Of a DNA stretch of 50,138 nucleotides, positions 36,001 through 39,000 are shown one piece after another; position 1 is the stretch's first letter, and every line of letters begins with the position of its first letter. The stretch is from a virus (taxonomy: Duplodnaviria; Heunggongvirae; Uroviricota; Caudoviricetes), in IMG/VR virus record IMGVR_UViG_2877948078_000005, positions 1 through 50,138 of that record, one strand, 5' to 3'. Position numbers: made by a program.

Positions 36001-39000
36001 CGGATCACCTTCAGATGGAATGACGGGCTGATCCACATTGCATAGGCATACACCAGTTCTTTGCAGACATACGTCCCCTGGTTATTTCCGCCACGAATAA
36101 CGTTAACTGGCTCTATATTGACCGAGTTGCAAATCTGCAACTCGCTTATTAAACGCTCAGTTTGCTCATTGCGGAGCCAGAATGCAGGCTTATGCTTATC
36201 CAGAGAACCGGCAGCCCTGTGCAGATCGTTCAGGCTGTAACGACCATAAGCATCACGACGAACTTCAATACCATCAATGACCATCAGATTATTCATACTT
36301 CGTTTCTCCTCTTAATCAGGCGGCTGCACCCGCCGTTTTCTCGTACTTACTGATAGTGATCTCGACCTTCCCTTCCGGGATAACCGGTCCCCACTCCACC
36401 AGCATTCTTTTCACCTGACTGTCGTCTTCCCACACACCCGCGTGGGTCAGGGCGTCAAACAGCGCCTTGTTATAGTTGTCCAGATCGCGGATCCGGTTAT
36501 CCGGAGGAAACAACACGATCTCCACTGAAGCAGGTGCCGACGTTGGTTTTGGCAGACGACGTAACTGCTCAACTATTGCTGCACACGCCGCGCTCTGGAA
36601 TTTGCGCCCCGCCGCGCTTATCAGGCTCTTACCTGCAAACGCCCCTTTGTTGGGGTGTCGCCAGTACGTGTTCACGCTGGGCGGAAAAGGCAGGATCAGC
36701 TTCATACTTTCAGGTCCCTCTCATGTAACCAGTGGGTTGCACGCAGCCTTGCGTTTTCCTCACCGGCAAGCAGTGCGCGGATAATCCCGACCGCCTCGCT
36801 GTCGTCGTCCTTCACCGCGGTATGAAGCGTTATCCCCCGGGCCACGCCACGCTTTATCGTGATGACGCCTTTTTTCTCCAGTGCGCGAAGATGCTCTACC
36901 GCTGCATTCACTGAACGGTATCCCAGCATGGTTGCCACCTCCTGATTGGTTGGCGGAAAGCCACGCTCTTTCTGATAAGAAATCAGCATATCCAGCACCT
37001 GCTGCTGGCATTGAGTTAACGTCGTCATGCCGCCATCTCCCTGACCAGTTTTTCTGCCTGCTGGCGAACCTGCGCCAGAAACGCCTCACCACATGCCTCA
37101 AGTTCATCGCGCCCGATGTAGCTGATTGCCGGTCCCTTCCAGGTCTTATCGAAAACAGCAATAGCACCAGCGAAGAAAGCGCCTGTCGGCACCTGCTTCT
37201 CATCCTTCGGGATAAACCAGGCAGGCAGTTCAAAACCAATACGCCCGCGAATAAAAGCAATATGGTCCGCATCTTCCGGCCACCACACTTCGCTGGTGGC
37301 AGCTTTGATCAGGAAAACATAGCGCCCACCCTTATCACGCATGGCACTGGCATGCTTCATGATGTAACGCATGCCGGTGATGTATTGCCCCTCATGCTGA
37401 CTGGCGCGGCTGTATGGGGGATTACCAAAGGCAGCACCTTTAAGCTCCGCAAGACGTTCTGACCAGTCATGCGCCAGCGCGTTGTCTTCCGCCGTGTAAT
37501 ACGCGGCACATTTGGCGTTATCACCGTCAGTGAACAGATCCAGAACAAACGGACCAAACAGAGTGTTAATTCCCCAGAAAATGTTATCCGGCGTGCGCCA
37601 CTGATCGCCCACTTCCTTCAGTTCATGGGCTGGTTTGTTCCGCAGTTCCACCAGCTCCTGGCAATATTTATTACTCATTAAGCCCCCACGTAATTCCCTG
37701 ACAGATACCACTCATCACCCGATACAGCGCGCTTGCTGCTTTTCCGTAAACACTGCTCACGACGCGCCAGAAAATTGTTTCGTTCTGGCTGGGAATGGCT
37801 TTCACGGAATGCCGCCATCCACACCGTTGCAGCACGACGGTATAAGCCCCTGGACTCCAGTTCTTCAGCCTGGCGGGTCAGGCACAAAATCTCCCGCGGG
37901 TCGTTAGTGCCGACATAGAAATTGCGCACAGGTCTGGTTTCACGAACTGGTTGCGGTTCCGCCTCCTGCGCTCTCTCAGTCAGGCGCGGGAAATGTCTGC
38001 ATGTATCCCCTTCACAACGGTGAGCCACACGACCACTCTGACGTAACTTGCTTGCTGACTGCAGAACGCGCTGCCGTGAGTAACCTGCAAAAGCATCCGC
38101 AATGTCTCCGGAAGTACACCCCGGATGGGCTTCAATGAATTTCTGAACGTCATTCAAAAGACTCATAATCACCCCCTGAATCCTGCCGGGATCTGGCTGT
38201 AGTCCACGTTGTCGTAACTGGCTTTGAAGTACGGATCTTCGCGTTTTTCTGTGTACGTGCTGACGGACGGCGATAAGCGCAGGGAAAGCTCATCCCATTT
38301 TTCCCGCAGCTTCGACGGGCTGAGCACGTTACGGCACCAGAACGGATCGCGGCTGACGCGGCTGTACATCTCGCAGATTTGTTTGTGAGTACGACCATCC
38401 TGCACACACATCAGGCGAATTTCGTTTGCCCAGGCTGTCCAGTTCGGTTCTTTGGGACGAACCACCTCGCCGTCACATTCGGCAGCCTGCTCGTACAGGG
38501 CGATGATTTTTTTCCAGAGCCACTGTGCGCAGGTCAAATCATCCTGCGTCCCCCACTGGCGCTTTTTAGGGCTGAATACAACCGCATCAGGATGGCGAGT
38601 TAAAAAATCCTGTTCAGCCGTCTGCGTGTCCGGTTGCGAAGCGTCCGGACGAGAAGAGGTTTTATTCTCTGTAGTAATCTCTGTTGTATTCTCTGTAAGA
38701 TCATTGGGCCATTTTGACCCGATGACAGCGTGTCGTTTTGAACCAATGGATCGTGTCATTTTGCGCGCATCCATCAGGTCACTTTGACCCGATGGAGAAG
38801 TGCATTTTGACCTGATGGATTCGTTCACTTTGACCTCTTCTAAAAGCTCACTTTCATAGTTGATCGTGTAGAAGTTGGTCATGTCACGCTTCGATTTATT
38901 GAGTTGCTCGCGACGCAAAACCCCAAGTGATTTCAGGCTTGCAAATGTGCGTTTCAGAGTGGACTCTGACCAGAACGGAAACTGCTCCAGCCACTGTTCT

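What the first reader, a model, noticed from the sequence alone, without database searches (positions are those of the whole stretch)
37678..38166. PerC-like motif protein in the early-right operon
The 162-aa protein contains ELESRGLYRRAATVWMAAF, resembling the PerC/Pch activator signature as I recall it. Pch proteins encoded on EHEC prophages activate the LEE pathogenicity island, so a PerC-like gene on an Stx2 prophage could link prophage carriage to virulence regulation. The N-terminal 90 aa are not PerC-like.
Basis: partly seen in the sequence, partly recalled or inferred. Interest (0 to 1): 0.45.

Follow-up and report, generated by a model that had tools for sequence, protein, structure and literature searches.

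The report
yfdN-type PerC-family early phage gene
The gene is an intact copy of yfdN, a very common and already annotated but functionally unstudied prophage gene that joins a winged-helix domain to a short PerC-like helical module; nothing here indicates that it switches on the LEE virulence island.

Summary
A 162-aa ORF lies at 37678-38166 on the minus strand and carries ELESRGLYRRAATVWMAAF at residues 102-120. Pfam PerC (PF06069) scores 38.9 bits against a cut-off of 22.6.

The gene is not new. It is 96% identical to E. coli K-12 YfdN (cryptic prophage CPS-53). RefSeq already names it "yfdN, PerC family transcriptional regulator". It occurs in 2674 of 5426 complete E. coli genomes.

- **Architecture:** an N-terminal MarR/BlaI-type winged helix, a disordered linker, then a three-helix module. 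The module matches only the first 54 of 90 PerC profile positions. It lacks the C-terminal segment of PerC/Pch and ends in a subfamily-specific LxGxYVG tail.
- **Related family:** the same module resembles the ANR (Aar) anti-activator family.
- **Position:** the gene is translationally coupled inside the early-right operon, between the replication gene and dam. This position is kept in relatives down to 24% identity.
- **LEE link:** not supported. The prophage is 99.985% identical to one in an O113:H21 strain, a serotype that lacks LEE. Small PerC-family proteins variously activate, ignore or silence LEE.

Its function is uncharacterised. My best inference is a DNA-tethered regulator made on phage induction. 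Interest is low.

The parts
37678..38166 (-). yfdN-type CDS, 162 aa (ATG 38166-38164, stop TAA 37680-37678)
   Evidence: ORF list and sequence. It is 96% identical to K-12 YfdN b2357 and 100% identical at DNA level to the gene encoding RefSeq WP_072097526.1 'yfdN PerC family transcriptional regulator'. PHROG 1324 E 8e-77.
38172..38177 (-). Shine-Dalgarno AGGGGG, 5 nt upstream of the ATG. It lies within the last codons of the upstream replication gene (stop TGA 38171-38169). The alternative GTG start used by RefSeq is 38172-38170.
   Evidence: Junction sequence GGATTCAGGGGGTGATTATGAGTC. Many homologues start at MSL.
37981..38166 (-). N-terminal winged helix domain, residues 1-62 (H3-13, H19-25, H31-44, strands 47-52 and 55-60)
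37900..37980 (-). Variable, predicted disordered linker, residues 63-89
   Evidence: pLDDT below 50 for residues 64-81. This is the most variable and gapped part of alignments A1 and A2.
37720..37899 (-). PerC/ANR-type three-helix module, residues 90-149 (H90-106, H109-122, H126-143)
   Evidence: Pfam PerC 38.9 bits, protein 98-151 = profile 5-58 of 90. NCBIfam ANR_neg_reg 24.8 bits, E 1.4e-5, below the cut-off of 32. pLDDT 92-97. Invariant A100, L103, R111, A112 and near-invariant L108, A113, R136, C139 across 34 diverse members.
37807..37863 (-). The quoted motif ELESRGLYRRAATVWMAAF, residues 102-120 (end of helix 1, turn, helix 2 of the module)
37681..37719 (-). C-terminal tail GDEWYLSGNYVGA, residues 150-162, with the subfamily-specific W(Y/C)L(A/S)Gx(Y/F)xG motif that replaces the PerC/Pch C-terminal segment
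   Evidence: G157 and G161 are near-invariant in A2. The contrast with Pch, PchE and EcCIMP1_025 is seen in A5. Model confidence is low here.
38169..39161 (-). Context: upstream replication gene (330 aa). Its stop codon (38171-38169) lies 2 nt upstream of the yfdN ATG and overlaps the alternative GTG start.
   Evidence: Phage records call it replication protein O or primosomal protein. Counterparts in relatives carry HTH_36 + Phg_2220_C.
37025..37678 (-). Context: downstream Dam-type N6-adenine methyltransferase. Its ATG (37678-37676) overlaps the yfdN stop as TAATG.
   Evidence: Pfam Dam E 1e-45, junction sequence, RefSeq coordinates.
36316..37028 (-). Context: LexA-DNA-binding-domain-only gene (36702-37028) and rusA (36316-36705), the next genes of the same tightly packed early operon
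   Evidence: Pfam LexA_DNA_bind E 3e-19 and RusA E 6e-15. The same order is found in distant relatives.

Best explanation
Identity (shown). This is the Stx2d-prophage copy of yfdN, a widespread early gene of lambdoid prophages of Enterobacteriaceae. It encodes a two-domain protein. A MarR/BlaI-type winged helix (residues 1-62) is joined by a flexible linker to a basic three-helix module (residues 90-149). That module is homologous to the N-terminal half of PerC/Pch and resembles the ANR (Aar) anti-activators. A subfamily-specific LxGxYVG tail follows.

Expression (mostly shown from sequence). The gene has no recognisable promoter of its own. It is packed stop-to-start between the replication gene and dam in the rightward early (pR) operon. 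It should therefore be made as a delayed-early product after induction or infection, not as a lysogen-expressed moron like pchABC.

Mechanism (inferred by analogy, not shown). The winged helix places the protein on DNA. The PerC/ANR module then contacts another regulatory or nucleoid protein. Candidates are the H-NS/StpA/Hha silencing complexes on which Pch acts, or an AraC-type activator as for Aar. The result would be a change in transcription of phage or host genes during lytic development.

The direction of the effect and the targets are unknown. Activation of LEE is not the expected role in this host lineage.

Confidence by layer: identity and architecture about 0.95, expression from pR about 0.7, the regulator-adaptor mechanism about 0.35. 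The overall figure of 0.5 reflects the whole statement.
For: Identity:
- 96% identical to K-12 YfdN.
- 100% DNA match to a RefSeq gene named yfdN, and present in 2674 of 5426 complete E. coli genomes.
- PHROG 1324 'transcriptional activator', E 8e-77.

Architecture:
- AlphaFold2 models have pLDDT above 90 in both domains and a disordered linker.
- Pfam PerC is above threshold here and is hit by all 34 diverse family members.
- ANR_neg_reg gives E 1.4e-5 here, and 36.2 bits (above the cut-off of 32) for family member P0189.
- The ANR signature residues A10, E14, A22, W26, A29 of PMC4983702 fall on A100, E104, A112, W116, A119.
- The N-terminal domain has pI 9.1 and the module pI 10.7.

Operon:
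- The upstream stop TGA lies 2 nt before the ATG, and the yfdN stop overlaps the dam start as TAATG.
- The next minus-strand promoter-like site upstream of the gene is near 42838-42809, beside the cI/cro region.
- In 8 of 10 distant relatives (24-45% identity) the gene sits directly after the replication gene. Seven of those junctions are readable and all overlap by 4 nt. It lies ahead of LexA-DBD, RusA, DUF968 and Q.

Mechanistic analogy:
- Pch has no known DNA-binding domain and works by relieving H-NS/StpA/Hha silencing (PMC4764244).
- Aar binds AggR directly (PMC4983702) and is reported to act on H-NS by protein-protein contact (PMC10148876 abstract).
- Overexpressing K-12 yfdN changed glycogen accumulation in the ASKA screen, so the protein can affect host physiology (PMC2853380).
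Against: - No experiment on YfdN itself was found. EcoCyc-style names remain 'uncharacterized protein YfdN'.
- The module lacks the C-terminal 30-40 residues present in every PerC-type protein tested so far, so it may not share their activity.
- The ANR score is below that family's cut-off.
- There is no solved structure of any PerC/ANR domain to compare with.
- The promoter scan is no better than chance (6 sites found against 7.7 expected). Absence of an internal promoter is therefore weakly supported.
Confidence: 0.5

Rival explanations
1. One reading: a Pch-like activator that, when carried on an Stx2 prophage, turns on ler/LEE and so links prophage carriage to type III secretion.
For: It passes the Pfam PerC threshold and is 40% identical to PchABC over the 50-residue core, with all core invariants kept. 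Nearly identical genes sit on Stx2c and some Stx2a phages of LEE-positive O157:H7. Uhlich et al. deleted K-12 yfdN before measuring ler-lacZ, treating it as a possible confounder (PMC5931665).
Against: It lacks the C-terminal half of the PerC domain. PchD and PchE do not activate ler, although PchE at least keeps that half. EcCIMP1_025 silences LEE1. K-12 W3110 needs plasmid pchA to activate a LEE1 reporter (PMC4764244); that strain should carry yfdN in CPS-53, which is my inference from MG1655. The gene is in half of all E. coli, including K-12. The matching host strain is O113:H21, a serotype without LEE. It sits in the lytic early operon rather than as a lysogen-expressed moron.
Confidence: 0.06
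2. An ANR-like negative regulator: the three-helix module binds and neutralises an AraC/XylS-type activator or silences virulence promoters, as Aar does for AggR and EcCIMP1_025 does for LEE1.
For: ANR_neg_reg hits at E 1.4e-5 here, and a family member passes the ANR cut-off. ANR signature residues are kept. The module has the size and three-helix layout of ANRs. Its closest tested relative by identity (40%) is the LEE1 silencer EcCIMP1_025.
Against: The score is below the ANR cut-off for this protein. ANRs are single-domain proteins under 10 kDa that accompany an AraC-type gene, and no such gene is annotated in this prophage. The added winged helix has no counterpart in ANRs.
Confidence: 0.2
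3. A Ren-like function: a positional and structural counterpart of lambda Ren that protects the developing phage from an exclusion or defence system, not a transcription factor for host genes.
For: It occupies the slot of lambda ren, the first gene after the replication genes. In L006 it directly follows a lambda P homologue. Profile-profile alignment of the family with Ren homologues gives 71.6% probability, E 3.5e-5, over 53 columns starting at residue 1 of both. The Ren-like PHROG is hit by 11 of 34 members, best E 0.0014. Truncated Ren proteins are themselves named MarR family by NCBI.
Against: BLASTP finds nothing. The similarity is at the level expected between any two MarR-type winged helices. 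Ren has no PerC-like module, and how Ren itself works is not known to me.
Confidence: 0.1
4. An accessory of the neighbouring modules: a replication helper for the O-like initiator, or a controller of the adjacent DNA methyltransferase.
For: It is translationally coupled to the replication gene on one side and to a methyltransferase on the other. In relatives the methyltransferase changes family (Dam, D12, MT-A70, a C5+D12 fusion) while the yfdN-type gene stays in front of it. No lambda-P-like, DnaB-like or DnaC-like loader gene is annotated in this prophage's early operon.
Against: It also follows a lambda P-type loader in L006, so it is not a P substitute. In 11 of the 20 best E. coli genome hits the gene overlapping its 3' end is the LexA-like gene, with no methyltransferase. 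Two distant members lie in unrelated contexts. Nothing in either domain resembles known replication or methylase-control proteins.
Confidence: 0.1

Closest known systems
E. coli K-12 YfdN (b2357, cryptic prophage CPS-53/KpLE1)
   Same: 96% identical over all 162 residues. Same neighbours: yfdO replication-gene remnant upstream and yfdM methyltransferase remnant downstream.
   Different: Here the gene sits in an apparently intact Stx2d prophage rather than in a decayed remnant. There are seven substitutions, including C56 for H.
PchA/PchB/PchC of EHEC O157:H7 and PerC of EPEC (LEE1/ler activators)
   Same: They share the about 50-residue core A..LE..GLYRRAA..W......R..CLRK. Identity to the 104-aa group-1 Pch is 40% over 50 residues in BLASTP and 32% over the whole module in alignment A5. 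Same Pfam family. EPEC PerC itself was not aligned here.
   Different: Pch proteins are 104-aa single-domain proteins without a winged helix. They carry a C-terminal KAV..MG(I/M)..FRxY segment that is absent here. The pchABC-type copy examined lies after the lysis genes of its prophage, not in the early operon.
PchE (Sp7/CP-933C, a P4-like island) and PchD
   Same: PerC-family members that do not activate ler. PchE is 37% identical to the window's module.
   Different: PchE is 90 aa, single-domain and keeps the PerC C-terminal segment. PchE represses curli and enhances flagellar expression when overexpressed. PchD was not aligned here.
EcCIMP1_025 (PerC-family protein of a phage-inducible chromosomal island, E. 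coli MP1)
   Same: Closest tested relative of the module by identity (40%). It shows that PerC-family proteins can silence LEE1, and its authors also noted ANR similarity (PMC11773190).
   Different: 93 aa, single-domain, with the PerC C-terminal segment, and encoded on a PICI.
ANR family (Aar, Rnr, Cnr; NCBIfam NF033650)
   Same: Three-helix module of about 55 residues with the same signature positions. Sub-threshold HMM match here and an above-threshold match in a family member.
   Different: ANRs are stand-alone proteins under 10 kDa that accompany AraC/XylS genes and act purely by protein-protein contact. This protein adds a winged helix and has no AraC neighbour.
Lambda Ren
   Same: Same slot after the replication genes. 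N-terminal MarR-type winged helix that aligns from residue 1.
   Different: No PerC-like module, 96 aa, and similarity detectable only at profile level.

Membership tests
PerC (Pfam PF06069) | Whole-protein score at or above the Pfam gathering score (22.6 bits) | tested here: met
   38.9 bits, E 1.1e-9. All 34 diverse family members match PerC at E <= 0.05.
PerC (Pfam PF06069) | Match over the whole 90-position domain, including the C-terminal KAV..MGI..FRxY segment of PerC/Pch | tested here: not met
   Only profile positions 5-58 are matched. In alignment A5 the segment is replaced by GDEWYLSGNYVGA.
PerC (Pfam PF06069) | Core signature A..LE..G(L/F)YRRAA..W ... R..C | tested here: met
   A100, L103, E104, G107, L108, R110, R111, A112, A113, W116, R136 and C139 are all present and aligned with Pch, PchE and EcCIMP1_025.
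PerC (Pfam PF06069) | Small single-domain protein (about 90-105 aa) | tested here: not met
   162 aa with an added N-terminal winged helix and linker.
PerC (Pfam PF06069) | Activates the LEE1/ler promoter | not testable with these tools
   This needs a reporter assay. Published family members activate, do nothing, or repress.
YfdN subfamily (K-12 YfdN, PHROG 1324) | Full-length similarity to K-12 YfdN and to the PHROG profile | tested here: met
   96% identity over 162 aa. PHROG 1324 E 8.2e-77 over residues 1-161.
YfdN subfamily (K-12 YfdN, PHROG 1324) | Two-domain layout (winged helix + PerC-type module) with the C-terminal LxGx(Y/F)xG tail | tested here: met
   Models. The tail motif is kept in most of the 34 members and absent from PerC/Pch-type proteins.
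YfdN subfamily (K-12 YfdN, PHROG 1324) | Position directly downstream of the replication gene in the lambdoid early-right operon | tested here: met
   Seen in the window, K-12, 49 phage records and 8 of 10 distant relatives.
ANR family (NCBIfam NF033650) | Score at or above the curated cut-off (32 bits) | tested here: not met
   22.2 bits for the full protein and 24.8 bits for the C-terminal 82 aa. Family member P0189 reaches 36.2 bits.
ANR family (NCBIfam NF033650) | Published signature residues A10, E14, A22, W26, A29 on three helices | tested here: met
   They map to A100, E104, A112, W116 and A119 with identical spacing. The R/C pair in helix 3 is present with one residue less spacing.
ANR family (NCBIfam NF033650) | Stand-alone protein under 10 kDa encoded with an AraC/XylS-family partner | tested here: not met
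   162 aa, and no AraC-family gene is annotated in the 40-kb matching region.
Lambda Ren family (PHROG 142) | Sequence or profile similarity to Ren | tested here: inconclusive
   No BLASTP hit. PHROG 142 E 0.011 here and hit by 11 of 34 members. hhalign probability 71.6% over the winged helix only.
Lambda Ren family (PHROG 142) | Relief of Rex exclusion | not testable with these tools
   This requires a plating assay.

The most novel reading that the evidence does not exclude
YfdN-type proteins are phage-made, DNA-tethered PerC/ANR modules. On induction of a lambdoid prophage, including the Stx2c, Stx2a and Stx2d phages that carry this gene, they would remodel H-NS-silenced regions or neutralise AraC-type activators. 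Prophage induction would thereby be coupled to a change, up or down, in host virulence programmes such as LEE, or to de-silencing of the phage's own late/stx region.
Probability: 0.15. Interest if true: 0.55.

Novelty: already known. Interest (0 to 1): 0.2.

Why it matters
As it stands, it matters little. The gene is a common, already annotated prophage gene, and its presence on an Stx phage says nothing specific about virulence.

It would matter more if YfdN-type proteins turned out to act on H-NS or AraC-type regulators during induction. About half of sequenced E. coli, and several Stx phage lineages, would then carry an induction-linked modulator of silenced or virulence genes. The practical lesson is that a 'PerC family' label does not predict LEE activation. 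Tested family members activate, ignore or silence LEE.

Tried and rejected
- The AFDB library was not available.
- A profile search of PDB sequences found no solved PerC/ANR protein.
- The search for related loci with the diverse alignment A2 failed for lack of a conserved stretch. The reduced alignment A4 gave only 7 genome loci, used for taxonomy only.
- The promoter/terminator scan was at chance level and was used only as weak negative evidence.
- Porter et al. 2005 (PMC543544), the key paper on PerC homologues, is not held.
- The yfdN entry in the CFT073 nitric-oxide table could not be assigned a direction from the text retrieved and was not used.
- The 'P-loader substitute' idea was dropped after finding the gene directly downstream of a lambda P homologue.
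- The 'dedicated methylase controller' idea was downgraded because many E. coli prophages have yfdN followed directly by the LexA-like gene.
- I could not check directly whether the source genome lacks eae/ler. The LEE-negative status rests on the serotype of the near-identical strain.
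Full report
**Observation.** The ORF exists at 37678-38166, but on the minus strand.
- From the ATG at 38166 it encodes 162 aa ending at TAA 37680-37678.
- An AGGGGG Shine-Dalgarno lies 5 nt upstream of this ATG.
- The stop codon of the upstream gene (TGA 38171-38169) lies 2 nt before the ATG. It overlaps the alternative GTG start that RefSeq uses to give 164 aa.
- Many homologues begin at MSL, which favours the ATG.
- The quoted peptide ELESRGLYRRAATVWMAAF is at residues 102-120.

**Is it PerC-like?** Yes, well beyond chance.
- Pfam PF06069 (PerC) scores 38.9 bits, E 1.1e-9, against a gathering score of 22.6.
- BLASTP against a 104-aa group-1 Pch taken from an EDL933 record gives 40% identity over residues 100-149, E 2e-8.
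- The match covers only profile positions 5-58 of 90.
- In an alignment with PchABC, PchE and the PICI protein EcCIMP1_025, all share the core A..LE..GLYRRAA..W....R..C. The PerC-type proteins then continue with a KAV..MG(I/M)..FRxY segment. The window protein ends instead with GDEWYLSGNYVGA.

**What the gene is.** It is yfdN.
- It is 96% identical over its full length to K-12 YfdN (b2357, cryptic prophage CPS-53), which has the same neighbours: the yfdO replication remnant and the yfdM methyltransferase remnant.
- It is 100% identical at the DNA level to a RefSeq gene annotated 'yfdN: PerC family transcriptional regulator'.
- The 489-bp sequence is found in 2674 of 5426 complete E. coli genomes, nearly all at 95-99% identity.
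- It is also found in 49 phage records, including SfII, mEp460, many Stx2c phages and an Stx2a phage of O157:H7.
- The protein database holds thousands of near-identical copies under the same name in E. coli, Salmonella, Hafnia and Citrobacter.
- A species-level genome scan added Shigella, Citrobacter, Leclercia and Kosakonia, all Enterobacteriaceae.
- The literature already calls yfdN 'the K12 unique PerC homologue' (PMC5931665). I found no functional study of it.

**Architecture.** Two AlphaFold2 models, built from 19 and 34 homologues, agree.
- Residues 1-62 form a winged helix of three helices and a beta hairpin, with pLDDT about 90.
- Residues 63-89 are disordered, and are the most variable part of the alignments.
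- Residues 90-149 form three helices with pLDDT 92-97.
- The last 13 residues are modelled with low confidence although the LxGx(Y/F)xG motif is conserved.
- Sequence profiles agree: BlaI/MecI/MarR at E about 1e-3, and a MarR-type PHROG in 27 of 34 members.
- No solved structure matches the three-helix module.
- An exhaustive profile search of 1.8 billion representative proteins found only 147 clusters. About 25 are divergent two-domain proteins of 140-165 aa, down to 24% identity. The rest are single-domain PerC-like proteins that match only residues 98-146.

**Relation to ANR proteins.**
- The NCBIfam model for the ANR (AraC negative regulator, Aar) family hits the module at E 1.4e-5 (24.8 bits, cut-off 32).
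- It hits PchE and PchABC more weakly. One two-domain family member, P0189, scores 36.2 bits, above the cut-off.
- The published ANR signature (A10, E14, A22, W26, A29; PMC4983702) maps with identical spacing onto A100, E104, A112, W116 and A119.
- The module is therefore best described as a PerC/ANR-type three-helix unit.
- This link is not new. The authors of PMC11773190 noted ANR hits for their PerC-family protein.

**Genomic setting.** The window from 17676 to its end is 99.985% identical to an Stx2d prophage of E. coli 2014C-4135.
- On the minus strand the order is: cro-like gene, ymfL, DUF4222, two Rha-type genes, a 74-aa ORF, the 330-aa replication gene, yfdN, dam, a LexA-DNA-binding-domain-only gene, rusA, a KilA-N gene, DUF968, Q, a methyltransferase, three tRNAs and stx2AB.
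- The yfdN stop overlaps the dam start as TAATG.
- The next minus-strand promoter-like site upstream of the gene is near the cI/cro region, though that scan is at chance level.
- The slot is kept in 8 of 10 distant relatives examined through called-gene tables, directly after the replication gene. That gene is of the HTH_36/Phg_2220_C type, or a lambda P homologue in L006.
- The junction with the replication gene is readable in seven of those eight relatives, and in all seven the two genes overlap by 4 nt. In the eighth (L012) the contig starts just upstream of the gene, so its placement rests on the downstream genes.
- In those relatives the gene is followed by a DNA methyltransferase of changing family (Dam, D12, MT-A70, a C5+D12 fusion), then LexA-DBD, RusA, DUF968 and Q.
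- Two outliers lie in a different island and after recT.
- In 11 of the 20 best E. coli genome hits the gene overlapping yfdN's 3' end is the LexA-like gene, with no methyltransferase, so the methylase link is not obligatory.
- The slot is the one lambda ren occupies. A profile-profile comparison with Ren homologues gives 71.6% probability over the winged helix from residue 1. BLASTP finds nothing. I regard this as inconclusive.

**The LEE hypothesis.** Five lines of evidence argue against expecting Pch-like activation.
1. The C-terminal half of the PerC domain is missing.
2. The effect on LEE is not predictable from family membership.
   - PchA/B/C activate ler at least 4-fold, PchD not at all, and PchE less than 2-fold (PMC5931665).
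   - PchE instead represses curli and enhances flagellar expression (PMC6265319 and PMC7369912).
   - EcCIMP1_025 silences LEE1-lux in C. rodentium (PMC11773190).
   - The window's module is 32%, 37% and 40% identical to PchABC, PchE and EcCIMP1_025 respectively.
3. The gene is in about half of all E. coli, including K-12. K-12 W3110 needs plasmid pchA to activate a LEE1 reporter (PMC4764244). That W3110 carries yfdN is my inference from MG1655.
4. Strain 2014C-4135 is O113:H21 ST-223, a serotype that lacks LEE (PMC9453080). That the window comes from such a host is an inference from the near-identity.
5. The gene is embedded in the lytic early operon, unlike the pchABC-type copy seen after the lysis genes.

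None of this excludes an effect, positive or negative, in LEE-positive hosts whose Stx2c or Stx2a phages carry the same gene. That needs a reporter assay.

**Most likely mechanism.**
- *Shown:* identity, the two-domain fold prediction, operon position and family relations.
- *Inferred:* the protein is a delayed-early product whose winged helix binds DNA. Its PerC/ANR module contacts a nucleoid or regulatory protein and so alters transcription during lytic growth. The analogy is to Pch, which has no DNA-binding domain of its own and relieves H-NS/StpA/Hha silencing, and to Aar, which binds AggR directly and is reported to act on H-NS.
- I give this mechanistic layer about 0.35.
- The rivals are an ANR-like negative regulator (0.2), a Ren-like protective function (0.1), an accessory of the replication or methylase module (0.1) and a Pch-like LEE activator (0.06).

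**Verdict.** However, the gene is a known, very common, already annotated prophage gene of unknown function, and the virulence link is speculative and unlikely in this host. Novelty: already known. Interest: 0.2.

Noticed in passing
window 39379-41387 (minus strand); RNA matches at 39994-40081, 40106-40182, 40840-40926, 40951-41027: There is a tandem duplication of a module made of an isrK Hfq-binding RNA, a C4 antisense RNA and an Ash/Rha-type gene inside the early-right operon. The two copies are about 81.5% identical. The long ORFs called here (285 and 384 aa) probably over-extend across the RNA genes. The terminator-like hairpins at 40128-40111 and 40973-40956 lie inside the isrK matches.
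   Followed up: partly
window 36702-37028 (minus strand): A 108-aa protein consists only of the LexA DNA-binding domain (Pfam E 3e-19) and has no S24 peptidase domain. It is conserved one or two genes downstream of the yfdN-type gene in seven of the distant relatives examined. It could be a non-cleavable LexA mimic acting on SOS boxes during induction.
   Followed up: no
window 30572-30784 (minus strand), next to iraM-like gene 30238-30561 (+) and stx2B: A full-length match to the sRNA family STnc100 (158.7 bits) lies just downstream of stx2B. Beside it is a gene annotated as anti-adapter IraM in the matching genome.
   Followed up: no
window 20778 and 34448: The window has one extra C at each of these positions relative to NZ_CP027310.1. 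There, the terminase large subunit and the Q antiterminator are annotated as frameshifted. In the window the terminase ORF (20253-22238, 661 aa) is open, so those 'pseudogenes' may be homopolymer sequencing errors in the reference, or the window comes from a sister strain. The window's Q reading frame was not checked.
   Followed up: partly
window 38169-39161 (minus strand): The 330-aa replication gene upstream of yfdN has no Pfam hit above threshold, although its counterparts in related phages carry HTH_36 and Phg_2220_C. No lambda-P-like, DnaB-like or DnaC-like gene is annotated in this prophage's early operon, so how it recruits the host helicase is unclear.
   Followed up: no
loci L007, L012, L013, L015, L017, L019 versus window 37025-37678: The slot directly after the yfdN-type gene holds DNA methyltransferases of at least four different Pfam families (Dam PF05869, MethyltransfD12 PF02086, MT-A70 PF05063, and a C5 PF00145 + D12 fusion), always with overlapping stop and start codons. 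It appears to be a methylase swap site in this lambdoid lineage.
   Followed up: partly
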